A stretch of DNA of 63,651 bases. It comes from Acidimicrobiales bacterium. GTDB lineage: Bacteria > Actinomycetota > Acidimicrobiia > Acidimicrobiales > VFJN01. Shown in pieces: positions 13,840 through 63,503 of this stretch. The stretch is taken from positions 1 through 63,651 of the forward strand of contig JAUXRW010000038.1 of assembly GCA_030681555.1 (NCBI GenBank). The letters run 5' to 3'. The first letter of the stretch is position 1. Each line of letters opens with the position of its first letter. Under the pieces are notes generated by a model. That model did no database searches, was not told the DNA's origin, and was given only the letters and a program-made list of their open reading frames with translations. The position numbers and the translations under genes were made by a program.

Positions 13840-13841
13840 GG

Positions 13842-49068: not shown

Positions 49069-49071
49069 TCG

Positions 49072-50712
49072 ATGGCCGACCGCAGGCGGTACCCGGGACA
49101 CCGACGTACGCGATGGCTGCGGCAGGCGTACATCAGCGCGATTGCGTTAACCGTGCTTACAGTCGCTCTTGTGCCCTCGGTCGCGACCACGCAACGGGCC
49201 CACGCCGACGAGCCCACCGGGCAGCCGACGCCGCCCGACGCTGCATCGCTCGGCCCGACCGTCGGCGATGCTGCGGCCGTACGCGCTCGCTGGCGCCAGC
49301 TGAGCGCATCGGCCGATGCCTACGGCGTCCGAGCCGGCCAGCAGTCGGGCGTCATCAAGGTGAACCTCGCCCGCGCGTTCACTGAGGCGACCGACAGCCC
49401 GCTCAGCCACGCATTGGCATCCCCGGTCGATGTCGGCGCCGTCCAGGTGCTGCTCGGGCTCGCGCTCAACCTGCCGTTCCCGGTGTCGTCGGAGACCCTC
49501 TACCCAGCGGGTGCGACAGACCAAAGCTTCGATGACACGTCGCCCGGCGCAGCCCTCAACCCCTTGGTGCCGGTAGCGGCACGCTCGCTGTACTCGGAGG
49601 CCCACAGTCGGCCAGCGCCCTCCGCGACGGCCTACACCAGCTACGCAGGCGCCAACACCAAGGACACGAGCGACCTGCTGAAGCTCGCCTCGAACGCGGT
49701 GGTGTTGGCGAAAGGCACCGCCGAGGTCGCGCTCGGCCCGGTGGTGGGCGACGCCGCCCAAGACATCAGCTCGTTGATCGATCAGCTCTCAGTTGCGGCC
49801 GCACTGCTCGAGTCGGTGGGCGACATCGTGCAGGTCGAGAACGTCGCCTCTCGTTCTGACACCGTTGACACCGAGGACGGCAAGGTGCGCGCTGAGGCAG
49901 TCACTGAGCTGTCGGGTGTCACGATCGCCGGGGTCCTCAAGATCGACGCGATCCTCTCCCGTACCGTTGTCACGTTCGATCCGGCCCGGGGCGCCGACCC
50001 CTATGACCCTCAGCAGAGCACCTTCATCGGTGGGGCATCGGTGCTGGGCATACCAGTCAACATCGACCAAAATGGCATCAACGTCGCCGGTGCCGGCCTA
50101 GGTGTTACCCCCGTCGTCACGTCGGCGCTGTCCAGCGCGCTCTCGCAATCCGGCGTCCTCGATGTGCGCATCACCGCACCGTTGATCGTACGGGACGAAA
50201 CCACGGGCGCAGTGGACGCGACCACTGGGGCTCTTCGCATCAACTTCAACCCGCCGAAGGCGCTCAGCGATCTCGTCAACGTCCTTACCCCACTCGAGGT
50301 GGCTCTCGGCGAGACGCACGTCAAGCTCAAAGCAGTACCAGCTCCCGTAGCGCCCTCGACGCCCAGTGCAGAGGCGCCGAGCGGCGGCGGACAAGGCTCC
50401 GGGACCCGTCAACCGGTCGACTCGTCAGTGACCGCACGCCTCCCGACGACCAAGCCGGCGACCAGCATCGAAGTGACCCCGACGCGCCCATCGGCATCCA
50501 CATCGAACACAGACGCCACGTTACCGATTGGGTTCAGCGAAGTCGATGAGATCCTCCTATGGCTGCTCGTCATTTCCGGCGTCAGCTTGCTGATCTCGAT
50601 CGCTCAGCTGTGGCGATGGACGACCGAAGGCGAGACCGGCGCGACGCTCTACAGCCGTGCTGGCGCAGTTCTCGGGGAGCGCCTGGTCGCTGGCCGAACG
50701 ACACTCCAATGA
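49072..50712 (+). CDS. Secreted beta-rich protein with C-terminal membrane anchor (transporter accessory candidate)
   Basis: Signal QRAHA-D; GVTIAGVLKIDAI and IGGASVLGIPVNIDQNGINV; Pro/Ser/Thr linker; TM ILLWLLVISGVSLLISIAQLW. Confidence 0.78.
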   Translation: MADRRRYPGHRRTRWLRQAYISAIALTVLTVALVPSVATTQRAHADEPTGQPTPPDAASLGPTVGDAAAVRARWRQLSASADAYGVRAGQQSGVIKVNLARAFTEATDSPLSHALASPVDVGAVQVLLGLALNLPFPVSSETLYPAGATDQSFDDTSPGAALNPLVPVAARSLYSEAHSRPAPSATAYTSYAGANTKDTSDLLKLASNAVVLAKGTAEVALGPVVGDAAQDISSLIDQLSVAAALLESVGDIVQVENVASRSDTVDTEDGKVRAEAVTELSGVTIAGVLKIDAILSRTVVTFDPARGADPYDPQQSTFIGGASVLGIPVNIDQNGINVAGAGLGVTPVVTSALSSALSQSGVLDVRITAPLIVRDETTGAVDATTGALRINFNPPKALSDLVNVLTPLEVALGETHVKLKAVPAPVAPSTPSAEAPSGGGQGSGTRQPVDSSVTARLPTTKPATSIEVTPTRPSASTSNTDATLPIGFSEVDEILLWLLVISGVSLLISIAQLWRWTTEGETGATLYSRAGAVLGERLVAGRTTLQ

Positions 50713-50752
50713 TCGACGAATCCAGCGTTTGCGCTCGAGAGGGGATTGCTCA

Positions 50753-51199
50753 ATGACCGCCTCCCATTCGACCCCGGACCCGACCGACGGGGTCACGGAG
50801 GGCCAAACGACGAACCGCCGGCACCCCGGCATACCTCTGGATCGCAGCCTCACGATGCTCGTGCTTGGCATGGTGTCGGGAGCAGGGGGCCTTGTCGGCA
50901 TGTTCGTCTCGCTCAGCCGAGTCCGGCCCGAACCCGAGGTGTTCCGTCAATTCCCCTACCTCATCAGCGCGATCATCGCGACGGGCTTCTTCGTCGTCGG
51001 CGCCATCCTGGTGCTCGGCCACTTCGTCTGGCGTTCGTACCAGGAGACGCGGACCCTGACGCGCGAGTTGGAGGAAGCGGCGGCCGCCCTCATGTGGGAA
51101 CAGCTCGGGCTGCCAGCGGCGAACGGCTCACCGCCCGCGTCGGAGCCCGATCGAGGGGCGCGGCCGCTCACCTCAGCGCGGCGCAACACGGGTAGATGA
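50753..51199 (+). CDS. Small 2-TM membrane protein with QxPYLxS motif
   Basis: 148 aa; TM-EVFRQFPYLISA-TM then coiled-coil. Confidence 0.78.
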   Translation: MTASHSTPDPTDGVTEGQTTNRRHPGIPLDRSLTMLVLGMVSGAGGLVGMFVSLSRVRPEPEVFRQFPYLISAIIATGFFVVGAILVLGHFVWRSYQETRTLTRELEEAAAALMWEQLGLPAANGSPPASEPDRGARPLTSARRNTGR

Positions 51200-52059
51200 G
51201 CGAGTTCACCCAGTTCCTGATCATTGGCCTCGTGACAGGGGTCCTCTACGCGCTTATCGCTCTGGGCATCATCTTCATCTATCGAGGCTCGAACATCGTC
51301 AACTTCGGCCACGGCGGCTTCGCTGCCCTCGGCGCCTTTGCCTTCGTGTCGGTGTATGACAAGGGCAGCCGGCCCTACGCCCTCGCTCTGCTGGCCGCGT
51401 GTGTTCTGACCGCGGCCATCGCGGGGGTCGCACAACAGATCGCCATCCGTCAGGTCGTCGATCGTGATCCCATCGATGGAGCAGTGATCACCCTTGGCTT
51501 GTTGACCATCCTGACGTTCAGCATCGGGATCGTGTGGGGCGCCACCCCCCGCCAGATGCCGCAAGCCTTTGGCAGCGAAGGTATGACGATCGGCGACCTG
51601 GTGGTGAGCTACCACCAGGTCATGGCGGTCGTCATCGGCGTTGCCCTCTTCACCGCGGTAGGCTTCTTCCTGCAGGCCACCCGCATGGGCCGCGCCTTCC
51701 GGGCGATCTCCGAGAAGCGCCAGGTCGCACAGCTGATGGGCATACCCACCCCCGCGTACGACCTCGGAGTGTGGATGCTCGGAGGAGCGATCGCGGCACT
51801 TGCCGGCATCTTGGTGGCGCCCACGACCGGCCTCACCACGACGGCACTCACGTTCATCATGGTCAAGGCCTTGGCCGCCGCCATGATCGGCCAGCTGGTC
51901 AGCATCCCGCGCACGATCGTCGGCGCCCTGGCCATCGGAGTGGCGGAGAGCATGGCGATCTGGAAACTGCCAGATGTCACCGGCATCCGGGAGATCCTTG
52001 CCTTCGCAGTCATCACCGGAGCCCTGCTTCTCGCCCCGCGTGAGCGAGTGCTCGCATGA
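51196..52059 (+). CDS. LivH-like ABC permease
   Basis: YALIALG, VNFGHG, TRMGRAFRA, ALAAAMIG. Confidence 0.93.
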   Translation: MSEFTQFLIIGLVTGVLYALIALGIIFIYRGSNIVNFGHGGFAALGAFAFVSVYDKGSRPYALALLAACVLTAAIAGVAQQIAIRQVVDRDPIDGAVITLGLLTILTFSIGIVWGATPRQMPQAFGSEGMTIGDLVVSYHQVMAVVIGVALFTAVGFFLQATRMGRAFRAISEKRQVAQLMGIPTPAYDLGVWMLGGAIAALAGILVAPTTGLTTTALTFIMVKALAAAMIGQLVSIPRTIVGALAIGVAESMAIWKLPDVTGIREILAFAVITGALLLAPRERVLA

Positions 52060-54050
52060 ACCGAACTGACGAGGCCGAGTCGTCGGAGCGCACCTCGGTG
52101 GGCGAAGCACACCGGGCCCCGACGCAGGTCAACCCGCTATGGCGTCTCTTCGTTGCTCGCCAGGCGATGCGCGGAGGCGTTCTCGCAAGCCGGGGTCAGG
52201 CGATGCTCGCCACCGAACGGCGCCGACGCCAGGGCCTGCAGCGGCGCTGGGAAGGTGCCACACCAACGCAACGTCGAGTCTTGACCGCGGTCGCCGTCGT
52301 GGCCGCCAGCGTGTATCCGTTCATCGTTGACTCGGTCTGGACCTACGTTGCGCTGCTGGCCATCGTCGGCTCAGTGATCGGGCTCAGCTTCATCGTGCTC
52401 ATCGGCTGGTCGGGCCTCGTCTCGTTCGCGCAGGCAACGCTCATGGGCATCGGGGCCTACACCGCATTCCACTTCGATCGGGCTGGCTGGCCATTCCCGA
52501 TCGCAATCCTCGGGAGTGGTCTGGTCGTGGCCGCGGCAGCCGCGATAATGGGGATCCCTGGGCTCCGGTTACGAGGCCTCAGCCTCGGGATCCTCACGCT
52601 CGCGTTCGCGGGGGTCGGCGATGGGGCAGTCTTCGCGAACCGCTGGTTCACCGGCGGCGTCCAAGCGGGCGCAGTCCTGAAGCCGGCTTCGCTCTTTGGC
52701 ATCGACCTCGTGACGAATCGGTCGTTCTACTACGCGAGCTGGGCCGTGCTGCTGCTGCTGCTCATCGCGCTGCGCAACATCCAGCGGCGCAGCAGCGGAC
52801 GAACCTTTCTCGCCGTCAAGAGCTCCGAGGCGGGCGCGATCGCCACCGGCTTGAACCCATCGGGCGTGAAGATCGAAGCGTTCGTGCTGAGCGGTTTCCT
52901 GGCCGGGGTCGCCGGTGCGCTCTTCGCTTACTCGCTGCGCTCCCTTGCCGCCTACTCCTTCGCGGTCCCGGTGTCGCTGAACCTGGCAGTGGTCTCGGTC
53001 GTCGGCGGAGTGAACAACCTCATCGGGGCGCTCCTTGCTGGCTTCGTGTACGCGTTCGCTCCCGCGCTCGTCACCGACTGGGGCATCTCGGGCGACTGGG
53101 TGTGGATCGGGACTGGTGCGTCGCTGATCCTCCTGGTGATCGTGAACCCGACTGGGCTCGGCGGGTTGGCCGCGCGCTGGCTCAACCTGCCCGACCGGCC
53201 CGAGCCGATCGGACCTGTCCGCTCGGCCAGGTCCGCGCCGCCACGCGCCCGGCTGCTTGAGCACACCCGAAGCGACCTCTCCGGACGCGGGCTGCTGCTG
53301 TCGGTCGACGCACTCAGCCAATCGTTCGGCGGCGTCTCCGCCCTGCGAGACGTGTCGCTCGAGGTGCAGCGAGGCTCCATCACTACGCTCATCGGTCCGA
53401 ACGGCGCTGGCAAGTCGACGCTGTTCCGGGTCGTCACCGGCCAGATCAAGCCCGACCATGGCCGGGTGGCCTTCGCTGGGAACGACATCACCACCGTTGC
53501 GTCCCACAAGCGGGCGCAACGAGCGTTGAGCTGGACGTACCAGAGCAATCAGCTCTTCGGGGAGCTCACCGTTGCCGAGAATCTCATGGTTGCTCTGCAT
53601 CGGCATCGTCCGTGGGACATCCTGACCGATGCGGTGGGACTTCCGGCCAGCACCAGGCGGGAGCGTTCGCTCCGGCAGGAGGCCGACGAGCTGCTCGAGC
53701 TCAGCCAGCTCGGTGCCTTCCGAGACCGCCGTGTTTCCGATCTCCCCTTCGGGGCTCAGCGGCGTGTTGATGTGACCCGAGCGGTCGCGCTTCGGCCGTC
53801 GCTGCTCCTCCTCGACGAGCCGGCGACCGGCATGAACCCCGAGGAGACAGCGGACTTCGGCGAGTACCTGCGGCGGCTGCACGACGATCGGGACGTCACG
53901 CTGTTGTTCATCGAACACGACATGGAGCTGGTGATGTCGCTGTCGGACTATGTGTATGTGCTCGACTTCGGACAGCTCATCGCAGAGGGAACTGCCGCGC
54001 AGGTTCGGGCGAACCCGCGGGTCATCGATGTCTACCTTGGCAAAGGCTGA
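52056..54050 (+). CDS. Fused LivM permease-LivG ATPase
   Basis: GLVSFAQ TMD followed by GPNGAGKS, LPFG, DEPATG, EHDM. Confidence 0.93.
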   Translation: MNRTDEAESSERTSVGEAHRAPTQVNPLWRLFVARQAMRGGVLASRGQAMLATERRRRQGLQRRWEGATPTQRRVLTAVAVVAASVYPFIVDSVWTYVALLAIVGSVIGLSFIVLIGWSGLVSFAQATLMGIGAYTAFHFDRAGWPFPIAILGSGLVVAAAAAIMGIPGLRLRGLSLGILTLAFAGVGDGAVFANRWFTGGVQAGAVLKPASLFGIDLVTNRSFYYASWAVLLLLLIALRNIQRRSSGRTFLAVKSSEAGAIATGLNPSGVKIEAFVLSGFLAGVAGALFAYSLRSLAAYSFAVPVSLNLAVVSVVGGVNNLIGALLAGFVYAFAPALVTDWGISGDWVWIGTGASLILLVIVNPTGLGGLAARWLNLPDRPEPIGPVRSARSAPPRARLLEHTRSDLSGRGLLLSVDALSQSFGGVSALRDVSLEVQRGSITTLIGPNGAGKSTLFRVVTGQIKPDHGRVAFAGNDITTVASHKRAQRALSWTYQSNQLFGELTVAENLMVALHRHRPWDILTDAVGLPASTRRERSLRQEADELLELSQLGAFRDRRVSDLPFGAQRRVDVTRAVALRPSLLLLDEPATGMNPEETADFGEYLRRLHDDRDVTLLFIEHDMELVMSLSDYVYVLDFGQLIAEGTAAQVRANPRVIDVYLGKG

Positions 54051-54770
54051 ATGATGCTGCAAGCGACAGGTGTGTCCGCAGGCTACGGCGACCTCGAGGT
54101 GTTGCGTTCCATCAACATCCGTGTCGCTCCTCGGCAGATCAATGCCCTCTTCGGCGCCAACGGCGCCGGGAAGACGACGACATTGAGCGTCCTGACCGGC
54201 TTGATCTCGCCATGGTCTGGCACCGTCGAACTCGATGGCGCGAGCATGCGCGGGCGTAGGGCCGACCAAGTTGCCCGCGCCGGAGTCGCGATGGTGCCAG
54301 AGGGTCGCGGGATCTTCGCTCGCCTCACGGTCGAGGAGAACCTCCAAATCGGCGCGTACCACATGCCGCCCGGCGTCCGATACAGCGAGGAGCTCGACCG
54401 GGTGGTGCTGTTGTTCCCCCGGCTCGCGGAGCGTCGCAAGCAGATGGCGGGCACGCTCTCGGGCGGCGAGCAACAGATGCTCGCGATCGGTCGCGCGCTC
54501 ATCCGCCAGCCCCGCTTCCTCCTCGTCGATGAGCTCTCGCTCGGTCTGGCGCCGGTGGTCGTGGACGAGCTGTTCGCGGTGCTTCCCCGTATCGCGGCTG
54601 ACGGTGTTGGGGTCCTGCTTGTCGAGCAGTTCGTCGAGCGTGCGTTGCGAGTCGCGACCGATTGCTTCGTCATGGAGAAGGGGGCGATCGTGATCGACGC
54701 GCCGGCCGCGACGTTGCGTGACAACCCGGAGATGCTGCGCGCCGCGTACCTCGGCGCGGCGATGACCTGA
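54051..54770 (+). CDS. LivF-like ABC ATPase
   Basis: GANGAGKT, LSGGEQQM, DELSLGLAP, VEQ. Confidence 0.93.
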   Translation: MMLQATGVSAGYGDLEVLRSINIRVAPRQINALFGANGAGKTTTLSVLTGLISPWSGTVELDGASMRGRRADQVARAGVAMVPEGRGIFARLTVEENLQIGAYHMPPGVRYSEELDRVVLLFPRLAERRKQMAGTLSGGEQQMLAIGRALIRQPRFLLVDELSLGLAPVVVDELFAVLPRIAADGVGVLLVEQFVERALRVATDCFVMEKGAIVIDAPAATLRDNPEMLRAAYLGAAMT

Positions 54771-54880
54771 CGGCGGACCAGCGCCCTGTCTCGGTCGACT
54801 TCTCGGTTGGCGCCGGTCCGAGGCGCGGCTAGTCTACTGGCGCGACGGTAGAAGCAGAGGAGGGTAGGGTGGGACGAGCG

Positions 54881-55276
54881 GTGAACCCGGCGACGCTCAT
54901 GCGATCGCCTGGCTACTCGCAGGGCTATCTCGTCGGGGGCACGACGCTCTACGTCAGCGGGCAGCTCGGGACCGACGAGCACGGTCAGTATCCGGGCGGT
55001 GACGACGTGGCCGCGCAGTTCGATCAGGCGCTCAGCAACCTGGTAGCGGTGGTGCGCGAGGCTGGCGGCGTCCCTGACGACGTCGTGAAGATGACGTTTT
55101 TCGTCACCGATCTCGACGAGTGGTACGGCGCGATGGATCGGTTGGGGCCGATCTACCGCACGCATTTCGGGAAGCACTTCCCGGCGATCACCCTGCTCCA
55201 GCAAGCCCGGATGACCATCCCCGGGGGCAAGGTCGAGGTCGAAGGCATCGCCGTGTTCGGCTCGGCCCGAGACTGA
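54881..55276 (+). CDS. RidA/YjgF/UK114-family protein
   Basis: GYSQG, LYVSGQ, VVKMTFF, FPAITL, VEVEGIA. Confidence 0.9.
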   Translation: MNPATLMRSPGYSQGYLVGGTTLYVSGQLGTDEHGQYPGGDDVAAQFDQALSNLVAVVREAGGVPDDVVKMTFFVTDLDEWYGAMDRLGPIYRTHFGKHFPAITLLQQARMTIPGGKVEVEGIAVFGSARD

Positions 55277-55495: not shown

Positions 55496-57457
55496 CTAGA
55501 CCCGGGCGGTCGCGACGATTGCCTGCCGGATGCGAGCGACGTCTGGCAGCCACGCCTGCTCGAGCGACGGCGCGTAGGGCGGCGGGCTCGCGGCTGCGCC
55601 GATGCGTCGAATGGGCGCGTCGAGATGCCAGAACGCCTCGTCGGCGACGAAGGCGGCGATCTCGCCACCGATCCCGAACTCCAGGACCGCCTCGTGGGCG
55701 ATCACGAGGCGTCCGGTCTTGCGCACCGACGTCAAGATCGTGGCCCGATCGAGCGGGGTCACGGTCCGCAAGTCGATGACCTCCGCATCGATGCCGTCAG
55801 TGGCGGCCTCGGCGGCGGCAGCCACACAATCGTGCACCATCCGTGAGACCGACACCACGGTCACGTCGGTTCCCGGTCGTCGCACCACGGCAGAGCCGAG
55901 CGGAACGAGGTGATCTGGCGGCGGCTTCGGTCCCTTCATCCCGTAGATCTGGCGATTCTCGATGAAGATCACGGGGTTGGGGTCCTGGATCGCGGCCCGG
56001 AGCATTCCGTAGGTGTCCGCTGGCGTCGACGGCATCGCGACGGTCAGCCCCGGGATGTGGGCCAGCAGCGCTTCCAAGCTCTGGCTGTGTTGGCTCCCGG
56101 CGGACCGCCCCGCACCGAACTGGGTGCGTACAACGAGTGGCAGCGTGGTCCGCCCTCCGGTCATGAACCGCAGCTTGGCCGCTTGGTTCATCAGTTGGTC
56201 GAGGCAGACGCCGATGAAGTCGAGGTACATGAGCTCGACAACCGGGCGGGTGCCCGCCATCGCACCTCCGACGGCGATTCCCATGATCGCCATCTCCGAG
56301 ATCGGGGTGTCGCGGACCCGGTCCGGCCAGCGGTCATGGAGGTGACGGGTGACGGCGAACACGCCGCCGCCGGCGCCGATGTCGATGCCAGCGAGAAAGA
56401 CGCTCGGATCATGTTCGAGCTCGTGCGCAAGGGCGGACTGGACGGCGTCCATCACGCGAAAGGTGGTTCCGTCGTCCACGCATGCTGGTTGCGGCCCGAT
56501 CTTGGGTCGTGGCGCGGTCACGAAGTCCAGCAGGGTGGCGGGATCGGGCTCGGCGCCCTCGGCGGCGGCAAGCGCGGCGGCATCGATCTCGACGGCGAGC
56601 TCGACGTCGAGCGCGTCGAGCTCGGGTGCCGCGCAACCCATCGCAGTGAGCTGCTCGCGCGCGATCAGGAGTGGATCGCGCTGCTTCCAGTCGTCGAGCT
56701 CGGTGGCCGTCCTGTATCGCTGCGGATCGCCTTCGTAGTGACCGTGCCATCGGTAGGTGTCCGCCTCAACGATCACCGGCCCGCGCCCAGTGCGCACGTC
56801 GCTGATCAAGTCGGTCATGACTGCCGCGACCGCCGAGACGTCGTTGCCGGCCACCGCGATGTGGTCGACGCCGTACCCGCTGGCGCGGTCCTTGAGGCTG
56901 GCGCCGTGCTGGGCCGCTTCGGCAGAGAACTCGGCGTAGTGGTTGTTCTCGCAGAAGAAGATCACCGGCAAGCTCCAGACGCGGGCGAGGTTCACCGACT
57001 CGTGGAACATGCCCTGCGCGACAGCGCCGTCGCCGTGGAAGGCGACGACCACCCGTCCGTCGCCGCGCACGACTGCGGCGGTGGCAGCCCCGACCGCGAT
57101 CGGAAGCCCGGCGGCGACGATGCCGTTAGCGCCGAAGATGCCAAGACCGGGGTCGGCGATGTGCATCGAGCCGCCCCGTCCGTGGCAGGTCCCCGTCTCT
57201 CGCCCCAGTAGTTCGGCGAACATGGACTCCGGATCGAGGCCCTTTGCCAGGCAGTGGCCGTGTCCTCGATGGGTCGAGGTGATGATGTCGTCGCGTCCGA
57301 GAGGCCAACAAGCCCCGACCGCGGTCGCCTCCTGGCCGATGGACAGATGGACAAACCCGGGTATGGCGCCGTCTCGGTATAGTTGAGCGGCTCGCTCTTC
57401 GAAACGGCGGACGAGCACCATCCGCCGAAAGAGCTCTGTCAGGGTGTCTCTGTCCAT
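55496..57457 (-). CDS. Fused E1 alpha-beta TPP-dependent dehydrogenase (AcoAB-like)
   Basis: Start MDRDTL at 57457; HLSIGQEA, STHRGHGH, GDGA..ENN, TYRWHGH, then DTPISE, QHSQ, EVIDLR. Confidence 0.92.
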   Translation of the reverse strand: MDRDTLTELFRRMVLVRRFEERAAQLYRDGAIPGFVHLSIGQEATAVGACWPLGRDDIITSTHRGHGHCLAKGLDPESMFAELLGRETGTCHGRGGSMHIADPGLGIFGANGIVAAGLPIAVGAATAAVVRGDGRVVVAFHGDGAVAQGMFHESVNLARVWSLPVIFFCENNHYAEFSAEAAQHGASLKDRASGYGVDHIAVAGNDVSAVAAVMTDLISDVRTGRGPVIVEADTYRWHGHYEGDPQRYRTATELDDWKQRDPLLIAREQLTAMGCAAPELDALDVELAVEIDAAALAAAEGAEPDPATLLDFVTAPRPKIGPQPACVDDGTTFRVMDAVQSALAHELEHDPSVFLAGIDIGAGGGVFAVTRHLHDRWPDRVRDTPISEMAIMGIAVGGAMAGTRPVVELMYLDFIGVCLDQLMNQAAKLRFMTGGRTTLPLVVRTQFGAGRSAGSQHSQSLEALLAHIPGLTVAMPSTPADTYGMLRAAIQDPNPVIFIENRQIYGMKGPKPPPDHLVPLGSAVVRRPGTDVTVVSVSRMVHDCVAAAAEAATDGIDAEVIDLRTVTPLDRATILTSVRKTGRLVIAHEAVLEFGIGGEIAAFVADEAFWHLDAPIRRIGAAASPPPYAPSLEQAWLPDVARIRQAIVATARV

Positions 57458-57509
57458 GAGCGAGGTCCTCTCGTTGCGGGTGCCGGGATCATCGCTTACT
57501 GTCGGGGCA

Positions 57510-57527
57510 GTCAAACGATAGTTTGTC
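57510..57527. promoter_or_regulatory. Palindromic operator candidate in a divergent intergenic region
   Basis: GTCAAAC-GATA-GTTTGTC. Confidence 0.5.
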
Positions 57528-58338
57528 AGCCATGGTTCATGACCAGATCGCAGGAGAGGCCCCGCGACCGATCGTGGTACCCCGCGTCTTGCCGCTTCCC
57601 GGTGCGGTCGCCGGGAAGCGGGTGGTCGTGACCGGTGCCAGTCGGGGCCTGGGAGTGGTGATCTCGACCGCGTTCGCTCGGGCTGGCGCCCGAGTCGCGC
57701 TCGCGGCACGCAACGGGGCCGCGCTCGAACTGTTGGCGGCGGAGCTCGGTTCTGAGACGTTGGTCGTCCCAACCGATTGCAGCCTGCCCGAGGACAACGA
57801 ACGCCTCGCCCAAACGGTGATCGCCGAGTGGGGTGGCCTCGACGTGTGGATCTCGAATGCGGGCATCAGCCCGGTCCTCGGCGGGCCGGCGCGCACGACC
57901 CCGGATCTCTGGCGTCAGGTTATCGATGTGAACCTGAGCGGCGCGTACTACGGCGCCCGAGCCGCGGCGGCCGTGATGACCGATGGGGGTCGCATCATGG
58001 TGACCGCCTCGGTCCTGGCGGATCGGCCCCGGAAGGGGCTCGTCGCCTACTCGGCGTCGAAGGCAGGGATCGTGGCCATGGTCAAGGCCTTGGCGCTCGA
58101 TCTCGCCGATGACGGGATCTTGGTGAACGCAGTGGCGCCGGGGTGGTTCGACTCGCCCCTCACCGAGGCCTGGCAGGCGAACGAGAGGCTTGGCGAATCG
58201 ATCCTTGGTCACACGGCGCTGCACCGTTGGGGAAGCGTCGATGAGCTCGTTGGCGCGTACCTGTTCCTCGCGTCCTCGGCCGCTTCGTTCATCACCGGAA
58301 CGGTGATCACCGTCGACGGAGGATACGCGATCTCGTGA
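57523..58338 (+). CDS. Short-chain dehydrogenase/reductase
   Basis: VVTGASRGLG, NAG, YSASK, NAVAPG; start could be 57532. Confidence 0.92.
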   Translation: MSAMVHDQIAGEAPRPIVVPRVLPLPGAVAGKRVVVTGASRGLGVVISTAFARAGARVALAARNGAALELLAAELGSETLVVPTDCSLPEDNERLAQTVIAEWGGLDVWISNAGISPVLGGPARTTPDLWRQVIDVNLSGAYYGARAAAAVMTDGGRIMVTASVLADRPRKGLVAYSASKAGIVAMVKALALDLADDGILVNAVAPGWFDSPLTEAWQANERLGESILGHTALHRWGSVDELVGAYLFLASSAASFITGTVITVDGGYAIS

Positions 58339-59393
58339 GGTCACTCGTGTGGCACGGCGCGCGCGATCTGCGCCTCGAGGAGGTGCCAGAGCCCGACCGG
58401 GTCGGCCTGGGTGAGGCGATCGTGCAGGTGAGGTTCTGCGGGATCTGCGGCACTGATCTGCACGAGTACGCCGAGGGCCCCGTCATGATCCGGCCCGGCC
58501 GCCATCCGCTCACTGGTGAGGCGCCGCCGTTCGCGCTCGGTCATGAGTTCACGGGGCGCGTCGTTGCGGTGGGCGTCGACGTCGAGGTTCCGGTCGGCGC
58601 GCGGGTCGCAGTCGACCCTTGCTGGAGGTGCGGCACGTGCTACTGGTGCCGCCGTGGGGAGTACCACATCTGTCGCACTGGCGGTTCCGTTGGCCTCGCC
58701 TCCCCCGGCGCCCTCGCGCCGTTGGTGCGCGTCCCGGCCGCTGGGCTCGTGGTGGTTCCCGATGCCGTCGACGATCGCTCGGCGGCCCTTGCCGAACCTC
58801 TGTCGGTCGGGTTGCACGCGGTGTCGCGAGGTGATGTGCGGGTGGGCGACACCGTGTTGGTCCACGGCTTCGGTCCGGTCGGTGCCGCAGTCCTGCTCGC
58901 CGCCCAGCTGGCCGGCGCGGCCGCCACCTTTGTCAGTGAGCCGAGTGCGGAGCGCCGGCAGTGGGCCGCGCGACTCGGCGCAACCGCGGTGTTCGATCCG
59001 CTCGTGGATGATGTCCGTGCGGAAACGTACCAAGCGACCGGTCGAGTCGGGGCTGACGTCGTCTTCGAATGCACGGGGGTGCCCGCACTGCTCGACGGCG
59101 TGGTCGACACCGCCCGCCGCGGTGGTCGGATCGTGCTGGTGGGCGTGGGACACGGCCACGGCGAACTGAGGACGAACCGCGTCGTTCTGTTCGAGCGGCA
59201 GCTCATCGGCAGCTTGGGGTACAACCACGACCTGCCCCGGGTGATCGAGCTCATCGCCGCCGGTCGCCTGGACCCAACGCCTCTCATCACGGGGGTTGTG
59301 CCTCTCGATCGCGCAGTTGAAGACGCGTTCGAGGTGTTGCTCGCTGACCGCGGCAGCCACATGAAGGTGCTCATCGACGTGGGGGAGGTGTGA
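58335..59393 (+). CDS. Zn-dependent alcohol dehydrogenase (2,3-butanediol dehydrogenase-like MDR)
   Basis: CGICGTDLHEY, GHE, CWRCGTCYWC..C structural Zn site, GFGPVG. Confidence 0.92.
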   Translation: MRSLVWHGARDLRLEEVPEPDRVGLGEAIVQVRFCGICGTDLHEYAEGPVMIRPGRHPLTGEAPPFALGHEFTGRVVAVGVDVEVPVGARVAVDPCWRCGTCYWCRRGEYHICRTGGSVGLASPGALAPLVRVPAAGLVVVPDAVDDRSAALAEPLSVGLHAVSRGDVRVGDTVLVHGFGPVGAAVLLAAQLAGAAATFVSEPSAERRQWAARLGATAVFDPLVDDVRAETYQATGRVGADVVFECTGVPALLDGVVDTARRGGRIVLVGVGHGHGELRTNRVVLFERQLIGSLGYNHDLPRVIELIAAGRLDPTPLITGVVPLDRAVEDAFEVLLADRGSHMKVLIDVGEV

Positions 59394-60542
59394 ATGGATT
59401 TCGAGCTATCAGCTGATCAGGAAGCTCTGCAGGGGCTGGCGCGTCGATTCGCGCGCGAGGTGATCGCCCCGCAGGCCGCTGACTGGTGGGAGAAGGAGTA
59501 CTTCCCTGTCGATGTGATGCGCCAGCTCGGCCAGCTCGGGCTGATGGGCCTCCTGGTGCCCGAGCGTTACGGCGGGACCGATGCCGGGATGGTGGGCTAC
59601 GTCGCGGCAATGGAGGAGATCGGCGTCGCGGATCAATCGTTCGCAGCGGCGTGGAACGCGCACACCACGATCGGCTCGCTGCCCTTGCTCGCCTTTGGCA
59701 CTGAGGAGCAACGGGAACGTTGGCTTCGACCCTTGGCCGAAGGCACCAAGCTAGGCGCCTTCGGATTGACCGAGGCCGAGGCCGGCTCGGACGCCGCCGG
59801 CATCCGCACCCGAGCGGTCCGCGACGGCGACGAATGGGTCATCAACGGGACGAAGATGTTCATCTCCAATGCCGGTACGGAGATGTCCCTCGGTGTGACG
59901 TTGCTAGCGTTGACCGGCCGCGAGGAGGACGGGCGCAAGCGGTACGGCTCGTTCGTCGTGCCGGCGGGTACACCGGGGTTCAAGCTGGGAGAGCGGCTCA
60001 AGAAGCTCGGATGGCATGGGTTGGACACGCGGGAGCTCGTCTTCGATGATTGCCGGGTACCCGCTGATCACCTCGTCGGGGCCGAGGGGGCCGGACTCCG
60101 GCAGTTCCTTGAGATCCTCGGAGCCGGACGGATCTCGATCGCCGCGCTGTCGGTGTCGTTGGCACGTGCGTCGCTCGAGCTCGCACTTGCACATGCCAAG
60201 GATCGCCGCCAGTTCGGACGCTCGATCTCAGAGTTCCAGGCGATCCAGCACAAGCTGGCGGACATCGCTACGGAGCTGCAAGCGGCCCGGTGGCTCACCT
60301 ATCGGGCTGCCTCGCTGTACGATGCGGGCCGGCCGTACGCGACCGAGGCGGCGATGGCCAAGCTCTTCGCCTCGGAGGTGGCGAACCGCTCAGCGTCGGA
60401 GGCGTTGCAGATCCACGGCGGGTATGGCTACATGCGCGAGAGCGCCATTTCACGGTTCTATGCCGACGCGAAGATCCTCGAGATCGGCGAAGGCACCAAT
60501 GAGATCCAACGGACCGTCATCGCTCGGGCGCTCGGGTGCTGA
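59394..60542 (+). CDS. Acyl-CoA dehydrogenase
   Basis: FGLTEAEAGSDA, NGTKMFISN, FQAIQHKLA, IHGGYGY, EIGEGTNEIQR. Confidence 0.95.
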   Translation: MDFELSADQEALQGLARRFAREVIAPQAADWWEKEYFPVDVMRQLGQLGLMGLLVPERYGGTDAGMVGYVAAMEEIGVADQSFAAAWNAHTTIGSLPLLAFGTEEQRERWLRPLAEGTKLGAFGLTEAEAGSDAAGIRTRAVRDGDEWVINGTKMFISNAGTEMSLGVTLLALTGREEDGRKRYGSFVVPAGTPGFKLGERLKKLGWHGLDTRELVFDDCRVPADHLVGAEGAGLRQFLEILGAGRISIAALSVSLARASLELALAHAKDRRQFGRSISEFQAIQHKLADIATELQAARWLTYRAASLYDAGRPYATEAAMAKLFASEVANRSASEALQIHGGYGYMRESAISRFYADAKILEIGEGTNEIQRTVIARALGC

Positions 60543-60563
60543 TCAACGTCGCTCGTACCTGCT

Positions 60564-61205
60564 ATGCAGTGGCCAGTGAAGAGAGGTCTGGAGGGAGTCC
60601 GGCGAGTGCCGACCGATCGGCTGGATAACACGCGGCGCGAGGAGATCCTCGATGTGGCCGCGGAGATCTTCGGGAAGAAGGGGTACCGGGCGGCCACCCT
60701 GAACGACGTCGCGAAGGCGATGGGGTTCACTCGTGCCGCGCTCTACTACTACTTCGAGAACAAGCAGGAGATGCTGGCGGCCCTATCAGATATGGCCGGT
60801 TTGCACCTCATGACGCAGCTTGACAAGCGCTTGGCCGAGGACGGAACGACCTTGGACAAGGTGCGCGGGATCCTGCTGGATCACGCGAGCGCGTTCATCC
60901 GTCAGCCTCGGCTCTTCTCTGTCTTCCAGGCGGAGGTCTCGGAGCTTCCGACTGCAGCCCGTCAGCGGCTTGAGTCGGGTGAGCGGGCCTACATCGGTGC
61001 CATCGCCAGCCTGCTGGAGGTCGGCATGGACGAGGGTACGTTCGCGCGGCGGCCGGCGAAGCCGTCGGCGCTGGCGATGGTGGGCATGGCGAACTCGGTT
61101 GCACGCTGGTATCGACCGCAAGCGGGTTTGTCGGCAAAGGAGGTGGGTGAGCTCATCGTCGACCTCTGCGTGGGAGGGCTGACCACGCCGTCTGCGTTGT
61201 CATGA
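60564..61205 (+). CDS. TetR/AcrR-family regulator
   Basis: RREEILDVAAEIF..KGY...GFTRAALYYYFENK; start may be GTG 60606. Confidence 0.92.
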   Translation: MQWPVKRGLEGVRRVPTDRLDNTRREEILDVAAEIFGKKGYRAATLNDVAKAMGFTRAALYYYFENKQEMLAALSDMAGLHLMTQLDKRLAEDGTTLDKVRGILLDHASAFIRQPRLFSVFQAEVSELPTAARQRLESGERAYIGAIASLLEVGMDEGTFARRPAKPSALAMVGMANSVARWYRPQAGLSAKEVGELIVDLCVGGLTTPSALS

Positions 61206-63503
61206 CGCCGTCGCATCGGGTCGGTGCGCGGCGCGCCAGACCTTCTCTGGCGTCAGGGGCGGATCGATGTGGCGAACACCGAGGTGGCTCAGCGCATCAC
61301 AGACGGCGCTCACGACGGCGGGGGTCGAGCCGATCGAGCCGGACTCCCCGACGCCTTTGACGCCGAGCGGGTTCAACGGGCTGGGGGTGACCACTTCGTG
61401 GGTCTCGAACCGGGGGAGCTCTGACGCTGCCGGGGTGAGGTAGTCGGTCAGGGTCGTGGCCTGTGGTTGACCTTCTGCGGTGAACGAGATCTCCTCGAAC
61501 AGCGCCTGCGCCACGCCTTGGGCGAGGCCGCCGTGGATCTGGCCCTCCACGATTAGCGGGTTGAGGATGTTGCCGCAGTCGTCGACCGCGACCAGCCTGA
61601 GGAGATCGACCTTGCCGGTGTCGGGGTCGACGTCGACGACTGCGCCGTGCGCGCCAGAGGGGAACGTGACGCCCGCCTGGGTGAAGGTGGTTTCGACGCG
61701 GAGCCCTTCTTCGAAGTCGGCGGGACGGCGGGTCGGGTCGGCCGCGGCGACCGCAAGCTCTTGCAACGTGACTGCTTTGGCCGGTGTGCCCCGCACCGCC
61801 GCAGCGCCAGCTATGAGCTCGATATCCTCAGGCGCGGCTTCGAACAGGTGAGCGGCGAGGTCGCGCAGGCGGTCCGCGAGCTGTGCTGACGCCTTCTGCA
61901 CCGCGGAGCCGCCGAACTGGGCAGAGCGGCTTCCGACGGTGCCGCCTCCTGTGGGCACGAGCGCCGTGTCTCCGTGGATCACCTTGATGTGGTCCATCGG
62001 CACGCCGAGCTCGTCCGCGACGATCTGCGACCACGTCGTGGCGTGACCCTGACCGTGTGGCGACGTGCCGGTCAGGACCTGTACGCGGCCGTTGTCGAGA
62101 ACCTCGACGGTGGCGTCCTCGCTGAGGCCGATGCCACCAGTGATCTCCACGTAGCAGGCGATTCCGATGCCGAGCAGTGGGCTGGCACCCGAGCTTCGTC
62201 GCCGGTGCTGCTCGGCCCGCAGTTCCTCATAGCCCATCGCTGCGAGGAGCGTCTCGAGCAGGGCAGGGTAGTTCCCGCTGTCGTAGGTCACTCCCGTGAC
62301 GGTCGCGTAGGGGAACGCGTCGGCCGGGATCAGGTTGCGTCGACGCAGCTCGGCGGGGTCCATGTCGAGCTCGAGGGCGAGGTGATCGAGCGCTCGTTCG
62401 ATCAGGTACGTGGCCTCCGGGCGGCCAGCGCCGCGGTAGGCCGACGTCGGGGTCGTGTTGGTCATCGCCCCGCGCGAGCTGACGTGCACACGTGGAAACC
62501 GATAGGTGCCTTGCGCCATCATGCCAGTGGCCATCAAGAGCATCGGTGTCATGCTCGGATACGCGCCGACATCACCGACGAGCTCTGCGCTGAGCGCCAC
62601 CACGGTCCCGTCCTGTTTCGCGCCGATCGTGAAGTGCTGGTGCTGCGCCCGTCCATGGGTGGTCGCGATCATGTTCTCACTCCGTGTCTCGGTGTAGCGC
62701 ACGGGGCGCCCGAGCCGGCGAGCGAGCAGGGGGAGGAGGAGCTCCTCGGGGTATGCGTTCGCCTTGGCGCCAAAGCCGCCGCCAACGTCCGGCGCGATGA
62801 CCCGCACCTCGCTCGCTTCGACGTGCAGGGCCGCGGCGATGTCATCGCGCAACTTGTGGGGCTGCTGGGTGGAGGACCACACCGTGAACTCGCCTGATTC
62901 CGGGTGCCAGCCCGCGAGGACGGAACGCGGCTCGAGCGAGACCGACGCAACCCGCTGGTTCAGGATCGCGCCGTCGACGACCACGTCAGCGTCCTTCAGC
63001 AGATCGTCGGGCCTCGGCATTGCCAGACCGCCGATCTGGTTCGTGCCCCACGTTTCCCAGATCACCGGCGACCCAGGATCGAGGGCGGCGATGGGGTCAA
63101 CGACGGCAGCCAGCTGCTCGTAGTCGATCTCGATCGCGCTCGCTCCGTCGACCGCGGCGTAGCGGCTCTCTGCCAAGACGACGGCGATCGGCTCGCCTAC
63201 GTAGCGGACTCGCCCGCGGGCGAGGCTTGGCTGCTCCAGACCGGGAAGGGGGACGAAGCCGCCGCCAGTCGGCACCAGTGGGAGGTCATCGCCCAGGTCA
63301 TCGGCGGTGAACACAGCGACGACCCCGGGACTCGCCGTCGCCCGCGAGGTGTCAATGCCGCGCAGCTCGGCATGTGCTTCGTAGCTTCGGACGAACGCAG
63401 CGTGCAGCATGTCGGGCAGCGCGATGTCCTCCGTGTAGCAGTGCTGTCCGACGAGGAGGCGTGCGTCTTCGACCCGCTCGACCCGGTTTCCGAGAATGCT
63501 CAT
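61200..63503 (-). CDS. Xanthine dehydrogenase-family molybdopterin subunit (CoxL form II / CutA-like)
   Basis: GNRVERVED, GGGFGAK, AYRGAGRPEA, GQGHATT, KGVGESG. Confidence 0.92.
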   Translation of the reverse strand: MSILGNRVERVEDARLLVGQHCYTEDIALPDMLHAAFVRSYEAHAELRGIDTSRATASPGVVAVFTADDLGDDLPLVPTGGGFVPLPGLEQPSLARGRVRYVGEPIAVVLAESRYAAVDGASAIEIDYEQLAAVVDPIAALDPGSPVIWETWGTNQIGGLAMPRPDDLLKDADVVVDGAILNQRVASVSLEPRSVLAGWHPESGEFTVWSSTQQPHKLRDDIAAALHVEASEVRVIAPDVGGGFGAKANAYPEELLLPLLARRLGRPVRYTETRSENMIATTHGRAQHQHFTIGAKQDGTVVALSAELVGDVGAYPSMTPMLLMATGMMAQGTYRFPRVHVSSRGAMTNTTPTSAYRGAGRPEATYLIERALDHLALELDMDPAELRRRNLIPADAFPYATVTGVTYDSGNYPALLETLLAAMGYEELRAEQHRRRSSGASPLLGIGIACYVEITGGIGLSEDATVEVLDNGRVQVLTGTSPHGQGHATTWSQIVADELGVPMDHIKVIHGDTALVPTGGGTVGSRSAQFGGSAVQKASAQLADRLRDLAAHLFEAAPEDIELIAGAAAVRGTPAKAVTLQELAVAAADPTRRPADFEEGLRVETTFTQAGVTFPSGAHGAVVDVDPDTGKVDLLRLVAVDDCGNILNPLIVEGQIHGGLAQGVAQALFEEISFTAEGQPQATTLTDYLTPAASELPRFETHEVVTPSPLNPLGVKGVGESGSIGSTPAVVSAVCDALSHLGVRHIDPPLTPEKVWRAAHRPDATAS

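What the first reader, a model, noticed from the sequence alone, without database searches (positions are those of the whole stretch)
55496..61205. Fused E1alpha-beta divergent from SDR, diol dehydrogenase and ACAD, with no E2/E3: possible acyloin-cleavage pathway
Established: butanediol dehydrogenase plus AcoAB converts a diol to an acyloin and then cleaves it. Here an added SDR, an acyl-CoA dehydrogenase and a lipid-type importer suggest a larger diol or alpha-ketol. A loose analogy is steroid side-chain ketol cleavage, where TPP enzyme DesAB pairs with an MDR or SDR 20-HSDH. It may borrow the free lipoyl carrier and E2 core encoded upstream. The substrate is speculative.
Basis: inference. 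Interest (0 to 1): 0.55.

Follow-up and report, generated by a model that had tools for sequence, protein, structure and literature searches.

The report
Orphan fused E1 catabolic module
A single-chain thiamine-dependent E1 enzyme sits back-to-back with two alcohol dehydrogenases, an acyl-CoA dehydrogenase and a TetR repressor; the same enzyme set recurs in hundreds of soil actinobacteria, almost never has its own E2/E3 partners nearby, and no one has worked out what it breaks down.

Summary
A 653-aa fused E1 alpha-beta gene (55496-57457, minus strand) lies 74 bp from a divergent operon. The ORF-list start at 57772 is spurious. The operon encodes an SDR, an MDR, an ACAD and a TetR. The MDR is most like (R,R)-butanediol dehydrogenase, the ACAD is short-chain/butyryl-CoA type, and the TetR belongs to an acyl-CoA-sensing subfamily.

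The module is not a one-off. In 160 related loci, an ACAD orthologue lies within the fetched flanks in 125. An SDR or MDR orthologue (never both) does so in 112. An E2 does so in only 1.

Missing E2/E3 is weak evidence for E2-independence. This genome has one complete E2, in an Lpd-E2-LipB/LipA operon with no E1 beside it. AceE, an OdhA-like gene and three alpha/beta-type E1 genes are scattered elsewhere. All E1 catalytic motifs are invariant across the family. Relatives at 46-51% identity carry an E2 in the operon.

Best reading: secondary-alcohol oxidation, then ThDP cleavage of an alpha-hydroxyketone (or a 2-oxoacid), then acyl transfer through the shared E2, then ACAD. The substrate is unknown but is probably not plain acetoin.

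The "lipid-type importer" is a Liv-type ABC system. The block looks horizontally acquired. The scan flagged this family in at least six other genomes without follow-up.

The parts
55496..57457 (-). Fused ThDP-dependent E1 alpha-beta, 653 aa. The alpha part covers residues ~1-320, a Pro-rich linker ~320-335 and the beta part ~335-653.
   Evidence: PF00676, PF02779 and PF02780. It scores below the PDH equivalog cut-offs. The GDG..ENN motif, alpha-His240, beta-Glu388 and beta-His457 are invariant in 80 family members. The family is monophyletic against split forms.
57458..57531 (.). 74-bp divergent control region with an imperfect palindrome at 57510-57527 (core CAAACGATAGTTTG at 57512-57525). 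Candidate TetR operator.
   Evidence: Sequence read. The exact core occurs once in the window, with 0.31 matches expected at up to 1 mismatch. It is absent upstream of the E1 in 80 relatives, whose TetRs are only 22-33% identical to this one.
57532..58338 (+). Classical SDR, 268 aa.
   Evidence: PF13561 and PF00106. No NCBIfam equivalog is reached. Orthologues at 50-64% identity lie in 92 of 160 related loci, and within 500 bp of the E1 in 37 of the 80 genome loci.
58335..59393 (+). MDR zinc dehydrogenase of the polyol/butanediol-dehydrogenase type, 352 aa. Its start overlaps the SDR stop by 4 bp.
   Evidence: PF08240 and PF00107. Best PDB match is 6ie0, (R,R)-butanediol dehydrogenase, 216 bits. 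Orthologues at 51-62% identity lie beside the E1 in Streptomyces and Pseudonocardiaceae.
59394..60542 (+). Acyl-CoA dehydrogenase of the short-chain/butyryl-CoA type, 382 aa.
   Evidence: All three ACAD domains are present. The best solved relatives are bacterial ACADs including 5ol2_C and 4l1f, followed by butyryl-CoA and short-chain ACADs. Orthologues at 55-72% identity lie in 125 of 160 related loci.
60564..61205 (+). TetR repressor (TetR_N + TetR_C_24), 21 bp after the ACAD and probably co-transcribed with it.
   Evidence: The nearest solved relatives are 3dcf, 3vpr, Mce3R, KstR2, MbdR and Bacillus FadR. From general knowledge, several of these bind CoA thioesters.
47689..55276 (+). Context only. 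A Liv/HAAT-type ABC importer operon (SBP, two accessory proteins, LivH, LivM-LivG fusion, LivF) followed by RidA. It shares the low-GC3 signature of the module. Not shown to belong to the module.
   Evidence: Liv parts lie near the E1 in only a few relatives. The SBP is only remotely LivJ-like.
61200..63503 (-). Context only. Molybdenum hydroxylase large subunit, closest to aldehyde/glyceraldehyde dehydrogenase and CoxL types. It is convergent with the TetR and overlaps it by 6 bp.
   Evidence: No match in the 80 genome loci and 1 in the 80 metagenome loci.
13842..14072 (+). Context only. Free 76-aa lipoyl-domain protein directly after the split E1 beta gene. It is one of only two lipoyl carriers in the genome.
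41628..42407 (+). Context only. An E2 catalytic domain alone (DHRAFDG motif, no lipoyl or E3-binding domain), followed by an IS5-type transposase gene.

Best explanation
This is a TetR-controlled catabolic module of a widespread, uncharacterised actinobacterial family.

Step 1 (inferred): the butanediol-dehydrogenase-like MDR and the SDR oxidise a secondary alcohol. The substrate is most likely the stereoisomers of a vicinal diol or hydroxyketone larger than butanediol, and the product is an alpha-hydroxyketone.

Step 2 (enzyme class shown, substrate inferred): the fused ThDP E1 attacks the carbonyl. It releases the carbinol half as an aldehyde or ketone and keeps the acyl half on ThDP.

Step 3 (inferred from genome layout): the acyl group is passed by reductive acylation to the lipoyl arm of the genome's single shared E2 (the Lpd-E2-LipB/LipA operon on contig C115), then to CoA.

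Step 4 (enzyme class shown): the short-chain-type ACAD desaturates that acyl-CoA, which then enters general beta-oxidation.

Step 5 (inferred): the TetR, from a subfamily whose solved relatives are known to bind CoA thioesters, represses the divergent promoters through the 57510-57527 palindrome until a CoA-ester intermediate accumulates.
For: Domain content and intact catalytic motifs.

Conserved triad: across 160 loci, an ACAD orthologue is present in 125, an SDR or MDR orthologue in 112, and the SDR is divergent within 500 bp of the E1 in 37 of the 80 genome loci.

The SDR and MDR orthologues replace each other along the E1 tree. This matches the known SDR-type and MDR-type butanediol dehydrogenases.

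The MDR's best solved relative is (R,R)-butanediol dehydrogenase.

The alpha part scores best against the PDH-y type model and below its cut-off. From general knowledge, acetoin E1 alpha also resembles that type; this was not tested here.

Some of the closest split relatives, at 48-51% identity, are E1a-E1b-E2-Lpd operons set among sugar and polyol genes.

Shared-E2 evidence. The genome has only two lipoyl carriers and one complete E2, and no E1 sits beside that E2. AceE, an OdhA-like gene and three alpha/beta E1 genes are scattered. One complete carrier chromosome (G343) has only one conventional E2 plus OdhA, about 3 Mb from the module. One relative, Sciscionella (L026), carries a full lipoyl E2 in the MDR-ACAD operon. 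Relatives at 46-47% identity have an E2 in the operon, with ECH, ACAD, an acyl-CoA ligase and TetR in Azospirillum and with an SDR in Fuscovulum.

The TetR's nearest solved relatives include 3vpr, KstR2, MbdR and FadR.
Against: No residue-level or experimental evidence separates alpha-hydroxyketone substrates from 2-oxoacid substrates.

No aldehyde dehydrogenase is conserved beside the module to take the aldehyde product.

An acyl-CoA ligase accompanies the E1 in 53 of 80 relatives. A ligase is not needed if an E2 makes the CoA ester directly.

The Azospirillum ACAD is only 32% identical to this one, so that cluster is an analogue and not an orthologue.

The operator is not conserved in relatives.

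No characterised member of the family turned up in four literature searches.
Confidence: 0.4

Rival explanations
1. It is a dedicated 2-oxoacid dehydrogenase E1, in effect an alpha-oxidation route. The SDR or MDR oxidises a 2-hydroxy acid to a 2-oxoacid, or an imported amino acid is deaminated with RidA clearing the imine. The E1, with the shared E2/E3, makes the acyl-CoA one carbon shorter, and the ACAD desaturates it.
For: E1 plus ACAD is the most conserved pair, in 125 of 160 loci. This is the classical branched-chain 2-oxoacid logic. The beta part almost reaches the PDH E1-beta subfamily cut-off, 318.1 against 321 bits. A Liv-type importer and RidA lie directly upstream and share the block's composition. 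The Azospirillum analogue pairs a Liv ABC system with E1-E2-ACAD.
Against: MDR enzymes of the butanediol/polyol type and classical SDRs are not the usual 2-hydroxyacid dehydrogenases (general knowledge; MDR affinity). RidA is absent from all 160 related loci, and Liv components from nearly all. No NCBIfam PDH equivalog cut-off is reached by the alpha part.
Confidence: 0.3
2. It is an E2-independent ThDP lyase or decarboxylase. The fused E1 releases the ThDP-bound fragment as a free aldehyde. That is oxidised to an acid, activated by an acyl-CoA ligase and then handled by the ACAD.
For: An E2 is missing from 159 of 160 loci. An AMP-forming ligase is conserved beside the E1 in 53 of 80 relatives. 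The active-site loop WHGHYEGD is invariant in the fused family and differs from the split forms.
Against: Beta-His457 and alpha-His240 align with the histidines that, from general knowledge, act in reductive acylation in PDH E1. Both are invariant. One family member and several 46-51% relatives have an E2 in the operon. This genome lacks an orthologue of the ligase. No aldehyde dehydrogenase is conserved nearby. Unlinked E1 genes are the rule in this genome.
Confidence: 0.12
3. It is an ordinary acetoin/2,3-butanediol utilisation system, AcoAB plus butanediol dehydrogenases, using an E2 encoded elsewhere.
For: The MDR is closest to (R,R)-butanediol dehydrogenase. The SDR also matches the meso-butanediol dehydrogenase model, at 173.5 bits against a cut-off of 270. 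The E1 alpha part scores best against the PDH-y type model.
Against: The tightly conserved ACAD has no role with acetyl-CoA. Relatives embed the module among a Baeyer-Villiger monooxygenase, an Amidohydro_2 hydrolase, a cyclase-family hydrolase, P450/Rieske oxygenases, an enoyl-CoA hydratase and a CoA ligase. There is no AcoC, AcoL or AcoR. The regulator is of the acyl-CoA-sensing TetR type.
Confidence: 0.08
4. The partner is local. The fused E1 loads the free 76-aa lipoyl protein (13842-14072), and the lipoyl-less E2 core (41628-42407) transfers the acyl group to CoA.
For: Both genes exist and look functional, with a lysine at the lipoyl position and a DHRAFDG motif. They are the only other lipoyl and E2 parts in the genome.
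Against: The lipoyl gene directly follows a different, split E1 alpha/beta pair, which is only 41-53% identical to the fused E1. The E2 core lies 13 kb away beyond two IS remnants. The lipoyl gene and the split E1 lie in the higher-GC3 part of the window, while the E2 core's GC3 is about as low as the module's. A complete carrier chromosome (G343) has no core-only E2 at all. Apart from the full E2 in L026, none of the 160 related loci shows either part.
Confidence: 0.1

Closest known systems
Acetoin dehydrogenase enzyme system AcoA/AcoB/AcoC/AcoL with butanediol dehydrogenase (Bacillus, Pelobacter, Cupriavidus, Pseudomonas). The comparison with Aco rests on general knowledge.
   Same: It has a heterotetramer-type ThDP E1 whose alpha part scores best against the PDH-y type model. 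It is associated with an MDR closest to (R,R)-butanediol dehydrogenase and with an SDR. The logic is the same: diol to alpha-hydroxyketone to ThDP cleavage.
   Different: Alpha and beta are fused into one chain. There is no AcoC, AcoL or AcoR. A TetR regulator and a conserved short-chain ACAD imply an acyl product longer than acetyl. The active-site loop WHGHYEGD is specific to the fused family.
Alpha2-beta2 E1 of the pyruvate and branched-chain 2-oxoacid dehydrogenase complexes (PDB 1w85, 1ni4, 1um9, 1dtw)
   Same: All three domains are present, with the ThDP motif, the activating Glu and both catalytic His residues. The beta part scores 260 bits against 1w85_B and the alpha part 192 bits against human PDH E1 alpha.
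   Different: It falls below the NCBIfam PDH equivalog cut-offs. It is fused, unlinked to an E2, and sits in a catabolic operon with alcohol dehydrogenases.
Actinobacterial shared-E2 arrangement, in which AceE and OdhA/Kgd use the lipoyl domains of one E2. From general knowledge; see also titles PMC10415282 and bioRxiv 10.1101/2020.07.24.212647.
   Same: The genome has one complete lipoylated E2, with Lpd and LipB/LipA, and no E1 beside it. AceE and an OdhA-like gene are elsewhere.
   Different: Here the proposed additional client is an accessory catabolic alpha/beta-type E1. That has not been shown experimentally for any organism that I could find.
Azospirillum brasilense plasmid cluster Liv-ABC | E1a-E1b-ECH-E2-ACAD-AMP ligase-PrpD-TetR (NZ_CP059451.1)
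   Same: The E1 is 48-50% identical. It has the same set of partner types (ACAD, TetR), a neighbouring Liv-type importer and a LivM-LivG fusion.
   Different: Its E1 is split and its E2 is in the operon. Its ACAD is only 32% and its TetR 22% identical, so it is an analogue and not an orthologue. It is also uncharacterised.
DesAB steroid-17,20-desmolase with 20-HSDH
   Same: A ThDP enzyme that cleaves a ketol, paired with an SDR or MDR dehydrogenase.
   Different: From general knowledge, DesAB is a transketolase-type N/C pair (PF00456). Here the ThDP domain is PF00676, and PF00456 was not among the families reported for this protein. It is not the same family.

Membership tests
ThDP-dependent alpha/beta-type E1 of 2-oxoacid/acetoin dehydrogenase complexes | E1_dh domain with the GDG-X26-NN ThDP/Mg motif | tested here: met
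   PF00676 at 249.6 bits. GDGA...ENN is invariant in 80 family members.
ThDP-dependent alpha/beta-type E1 of 2-oxoacid/acetoin dehydrogenase complexes | Beta part with pyrimidine-binding and C-terminal domains, the ThDP-activating Glu and a catalytic His | tested here: met
   PF02779 and PF02780. TPISE Glu388 and QHSQ His457 are invariant.
ThDP-dependent alpha/beta-type E1 of 2-oxoacid/acetoin dehydrogenase complexes | Works with a lipoyl-bearing E2 and an E3 | not testable with these tools
   None is adjacent. A shared E2-Lpd operon exists on C115.
Pyruvate dehydrogenase E1 (NCBIfam equivalogs TIGR03182, TIGR03181, NF008854) | Score at or above the curated cut-off | tested here: not met
   Scores against cut-offs are 322.3 vs 393.85, 229.3 vs 411.35 and 315.1 vs 454. 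The subfamily model NF006667 scores 318.1 vs 321.
Acetoin dehydrogenase system AcoABCL | E2 (AcoC) and E3 (AcoL) in the same operon | tested here: not met
   There are no PF00198 or PF00364 genes in 47-63.6 kb.
Acetoin dehydrogenase system AcoABCL | Association with a butanediol/acetoin dehydrogenase | tested here: met
   The MDR's best solved relative is (R,R)-butanediol dehydrogenase 6ie0, 216 bits.
Acetoin dehydrogenase system AcoABCL | Acetoin is the physiological substrate and acetyl-CoA the product | not testable with these tools
   The conserved ACAD argues against it.
Acetoin dehydrogenase system AcoABCL | The E1 groups with experimentally characterised AcoA/AcoB | tested here: inconclusive
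   No characterised Aco sequence was reachable. The nearest split relatives, at 47-51% identity, are generically named E1a-E1b-E2(-Lpd) operons.
DesAB-type transketolase-family ketol lyase | Transketolase_N (PF00456) ThDP domain | tested here: not met
   PF00456 is not among the Pfam families reported for the fused E1 at E <= 0.001. The ThDP part is PF00676.
Fused E1 alpha-beta / ACAD / SDR-or-MDR module of Actinomycetota (unnamed; defined here) | Single-chain E1 with the WHGHYEGD loop, grouping with the fused clade | tested here: met
   The fused clade has 99% support against split forms. The window's copy branches at its base. The loop is invariant.
Fused E1 alpha-beta / ACAD / SDR-or-MDR module of Actinomycetota (unnamed; defined here) | ACAD orthologue and SDR or MDR orthologue beside the E1 | tested here: met
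   The window has all three. Relatives carry the ACAD in 125 of 160 loci and the SDR or MDR in 112 of 160.

The most novel reading that the evidence does not exclude
The fused E1 alpha-beta family is a previously unrecognised class of catabolic C-C-cleaving E1. It splits bulky or tertiary alpha-hydroxyketones, for example from terpenoid-like or branched diols that ordinary dehydrogenation cannot pass. It has given up a dedicated E2/E3 and works as an extra client of the single housekeeping lipoyl-E2 hub of Actinomycetota. It feeds a dedicated ACAD and forms the core of a soil-wide pathway with no described substrate.
Probability: 0.25. Interest if true: 0.65.

Novelty: new variant of a known kind. 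Interest (0 to 1): 0.45.

Why it matters
The enzymes are familiar types, but this combination is conserved in at least 581 species-level genomes and at least 553 metagenome contigs. I found no characterised member of the family.

Identifying the substrate would assign a function to a common gene set of soil Acidimicrobiia, Streptomyces, Nocardia, Frankia and Pseudonocardiaceae.

It would also test whether accessory catabolic E1 enzymes plug into the one shared E2/E3 hub of actinobacteria. As far as I know, that sharing has been shown only for AceE and OdhA.

The scan has flagged the same orphan E1 repeatedly, so one answer would settle many findings at once.

Tried and rejected
I took context from the search for related loci, the genome search and the plasmid records instead.

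2. Four literature searches found no paper on this fused E1 or its cluster. A fifth attempt was malformed.

3. The window's palindrome was not found upstream of the E1 in 80 relatives. Their TetRs are not orthologous, so the operator could not be tested by comparison.

4. The sigma-70 promoter and intrinsic-terminator scan gave nothing usable in this high-GC DNA. The inverted-repeat finder missed the imperfect palindrome.

5. I looked in the window's own genome for orthologues of the extended cluster seen in relatives: acyl-CoA ligase, Amidohydro_2, cyclase, Baeyer-Villiger monooxygenase and a 303-aa SDR. I found only distant paralogues, so the substrate cannot be read from those genes here.

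6. NCBIfam gave no informative equivalog for the extended-cluster genes. The monooxygenase's best hit was PtlE, far below its cut-off, and the hydantoinase pair was nearest caprolactamase, also far below cut-off.

7. The PDB search with the binding protein gave only remote LivJ-like hits and no clue to the ligand.

8. I considered telling acyloin from 2-oxoacid specificity by active-site residues. I rejected this because I could not recall or retrieve a validated residue signature.

9. I treated the Azospirillum cluster as a possible orthologue and rejected that: its ACAD is 32% identical.

10. The maximum-likelihood mixture tree did not finish in time. The FastTree result was used.

Full report
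**What is there**

The window is about 69% G+C. I separated real genes from spurious ORFs by third-position GC and Pfam.

The finding's genes, with corrected bounds, are:
- Fused E1 alpha-beta, 55496-57457 (-), 653 aa.
- SDR, 57532-58338 (+).
- MDR zinc dehydrogenase, 58335-59393 (+).
- ACAD, 59394-60542 (+).
- TetR, 60564-61205 (+).

The 758-aa ORF that runs up to 57772 is an artefact. It overlaps the SDR, and homologues align from residue 1-6 of the 653-aa form.

The E1 and the SDR operon are divergent across 74 bp. That gap holds an imperfect palindrome at 57510-57527. Its core CAAACGATAGTTTG is found once in the window, against 0.31 matches expected at up to 1 mismatch.

The genes of the SDR-MDR-ACAD-TetR operon overlap, abut, or are separated by 21 bp.

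**Surroundings**

Upstream lies a Liv/HAAT-type ABC importer operon: a binding protein, two accessory proteins, LivH, a LivM-LivG fusion and LivF. A RidA gene follows it.

Downstream, convergent with the TetR, is a molybdenum hydroxylase large subunit.

Elsewhere in the window is a second, split E1 alpha/beta pair (11861-13839). A free 76-aa lipoyl protein (13842-14072) follows it directly. The pair sits in a cluster with a P450, a DUF35-type protein, a thiolase, an SDR, an enoyl-CoA hydratase, an ACAD and an acyl-CoA ligase.

An E2 catalytic domain without lipoyl or E3-binding domains lies at 41628-42407. It is followed by an IS5-type transposase gene, and an integrase fragment lies at 46420-46890.

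**What the proteins are**

- *E1.* It has PF00676, PF02779 and PF02780. The alpha part scores best against the PDH-y type model but falls below every PDH equivalog cut-off. The ThDP motif, alpha-His240, the activating beta-Glu388 and beta-His457 are invariant in 80 family members. So is a family-specific loop, WHGHYEGD, where split relatives carry a different sequence.
- *MDR.* Its best solved relative is (R,R)-butanediol dehydrogenase 6ie0, 216 bits over the full length. The next hit, a threonine dehydrogenase, scores 159 bits.
- *SDR.* It is a classical SDR with no specific assignment.
- *ACAD.* Its best solved relatives are bacterial ACADs including 5ol2_C and 4l1f, followed by butyryl-CoA and short-chain ACADs.
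- *TetR.* Its nearest solved relatives are 3dcf, 3vpr, Mce3R, KstR2, MbdR and Bacillus FadR. From general knowledge, several of these sense CoA thioesters.

**The module is conserved and widespread**

The fused E1 has thousands of relatives at 65-70% identity. They are named only "alpha-ketoacid dehydrogenase subunit alpha/beta" or "2-oxoisovalerate dehydrogenase E1".

| Feature near the E1 | 80 genome loci | 80 metagenome loci (many short) |
|---|---|---|
| ACAD orthologue, 55-72% identity | 73 (68 within 3 kb) | 52 |
| SDR orthologue, at least 50% identity | 44 (37 within 500 bp, divergent) | 48 |
| MDR orthologue, at least 50% identity | 17 | 3 |
| Both SDR and MDR orthologues | 0 | 0 |
| E2 or lipoyl domain | 1 | 0 |

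The genome-loci counts come, and the metagenome counts.

The FastTree tree shows the fused family as monophyletic against split forms, with two main clades. The Actinomycetes clade mostly carries the MDR. The Acidimicrobiia clade carries the SDR. The window's copy branches at the base, and it is the only locus with both.

SDR and MDR replacing each other recalls the known SDR-type and MDR-type butanediol dehydrogenases.

Relatives embed the core among other genes:
- an acyl-CoA ligase (53 of 80 loci) and a TetR (57 of 80, only 22-33% identical to the window's);
- further SDRs and an enoyl-CoA hydratase;
- a class II aldolase, an Amidohydro_2 hydrolase and a cyclase-family hydrolase;
- a Baeyer-Villiger monooxygenase;
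- Rieske or P450 oxygenases with a ferredoxin reductase;
- SnoaL/NTF2 and CMD-family proteins.

In the Pseudonocardiaceae loci, a hydantoinase A/B pair appears where the other loci carry the monooxygenase and hydrolases.

The window's genome lacks orthologues of these extra genes. Here the core stands alone.

**Is 'no E2/E3' meaningful?**

Less than it looks.

The genome holds three E2 catalytic domains and only two lipoyl carriers. The one complete E2 has lipoyl, E3-binding and catalytic domains. It lies on contig C115 in an Lpd-E2-LipB/LipA operon with no E1 beside it.

AceE is on C113 and an OdhA-like gene on C7. A third alpha/beta-type E1, also fused and 33% identical, is on C147 without an E2. 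Unlinked E1 genes that share one E2/E3 hub are therefore the rule in this genome. From general knowledge, this is the known actinobacterial arrangement for AceE and OdhA.

One complete carrier chromosome (G343) has only one conventional E2 plus OdhA, about 3 Mb from the module. In other complete carrier genomes the nearest E2 is tens of kilobases to megabases away.

One family member, Sciscionella (L026), carries a full lipoyl E2 in the MDR-ACAD-ECH operon.

Relatives at 46-51% identity have an E2 in the operon:
- Sinorhizobium and Brevibacillus have E1a-E1b-E2-Lpd among sugar and polyol genes.
- Azospirillum has a Liv ABC system next to E1a-E1b-ECH-E2-ACAD-ligase-PrpD-TetR.
- Fuscovulum has a fused E1, an E2 and an SDR.

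The Azospirillum ACAD is only 32% identical to the window's, so that cluster is an analogue and not an orthologue.

Together with the invariant catalytic histidines, this favours a lipoyl-dependent oxidative reaction that uses the shared hub.

**Origin**

All eleven genes from 47.7 to 63.5 kb have a third-position GC of 0.81-0.85. That is below the 20th percentile of the genome, whose mean is 0.90. The block lies just beyond the IS remnants.

In 24 genomes of the same genus, only two have an orthologue, and only at 67-68% identity. One of those two, G304, is unpublished, so half of that count rests on it. No fused orthologue was seen in 300 sampled genomes of the phylum, only split forms at 42-47% identity.

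The block is probably a horizontally acquired island. That weakly links the Liv importer and the molybdenum enzyme to the module in this genome only.

**Mechanism**

The conserved triad is a secondary-alcohol dehydrogenase, a ThDP E1 and a short-chain ACAD, under a regulator of the acyl-CoA-sensing type. It fits two schemes:
- (a) Vicinal diol to alpha-hydroxyketone, then ThDP cleavage to an aldehyde or ketone plus an acyl-lipoyl group, then acyl-CoA, then enoyl-CoA.
- (b) 2-Hydroxyacid or amino acid to 2-oxoacid, then acyl-CoA, then enoyl-CoA.

I favour (a) at about 0.4, against about 0.3 for (b). My reasons are the MDR's clear butanediol-dehydrogenase affinity, the SDR/MDR interchange and the sugar or polyol setting of some of the nearest split relatives.

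Plain acetoin is unlikely because the ACAD would have nothing to act on. An E2-independent lyase remains possible at about 0.1. The conserved ligase in relatives speaks for it. The invariant histidines and the E2-bearing relatives speak against it.

**Novelty**

All parts belong to known families. What is new is the fused, E2-unlinked E1 family and its conserved module. I found no characterisation of it in four literature searches.

The scan has flagged the same orphan E1 in at least six other genomes without follow-up. An earlier follow-up on this window concluded that nothing supports a lipid conduit for the Liv-type importers, which agrees with my reading.

Noticed in passing
window 4340-6525 (-): A P-type (E1-E2) ATPase is split into two overlapping ORFs in different frames, 5437-6525 carrying the N-terminal part and 4340-5602 the rest. 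It is probably a frameshifted copy. It lies next to an intact heavy-metal ATPase (370-2646) and a CsoR-type repressor (71-373).
   Followed up: no
window 11861-14072 (+) and 41628-42407 (+): A split E1 alpha/beta pair is followed by a free 76-aa lipoyl-domain protein. 27 kb away is an E2 catalytic domain with DHRAFDG but no lipoyl or E3-binding domain, placed after SCP2 and Rieske oxygenase genes. This looks like a dispersed 2-oxoacid/acetoin-type system inside a steroid- or lipid-like beta-oxidation cluster.
   Followed up: partly
G000 contig C115:13671-18204 (-): The genome's only complete E2 sits in an Lpd-E2 operon followed by a single 577-aa ORF. That ORF combines a LipB-type octanoyltransferase domain with a LipA radical-SAM lipoyl synthase.
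   Followed up: no
window 47689-63503: All eleven genes of this block (Liv importer, RidA, the E1 module and the Mo-hydroxylase) have GC3 of 0.81-0.85, below the genome's 20th percentile. They lie just past IS remnants at 42570-43463 and 46420-46890. The block is probably an acquired island.
   Followed up: partly
L028, L035, L037, L042, L057, L070, L078 (Pseudonocardiaceae loci): In these loci a hydantoinase A/B pair appears where other lineages carry the Baeyer-Villiger monooxygenase, Amidohydro_2 and cyclase genes. Its nearest named family is caprolactamase, far below cut-off. This may be two alternative ways of handling the same ketone or lactam-like intermediate.
   Followed up: partly
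L173 (Azospirillum brasilense plasmid NZ_CP059451.1, 523181-539115): A Liv-type ABC importer with a LivM-LivG fusion, as in the window, is divergent from E1a-E1b-ECH-E2-ACAD-AMP ligase-MmgE/PrpD-TetR. It is an uncharacterised proteobacterial analogue of the module that keeps its own E2.
   Followed up: partly
G000 contig C147:42996-45536 (-): A second fused E1 alpha-beta, 846 aa as called and 33% identical to the window's, has an N-terminal extension of about 170 residues before the E1 domain. Its neighbours are a quinone-oxidoreductase-like MDR and a metallo-beta-lactamase-fold protein. No E2 is nearby.
   Followed up: no
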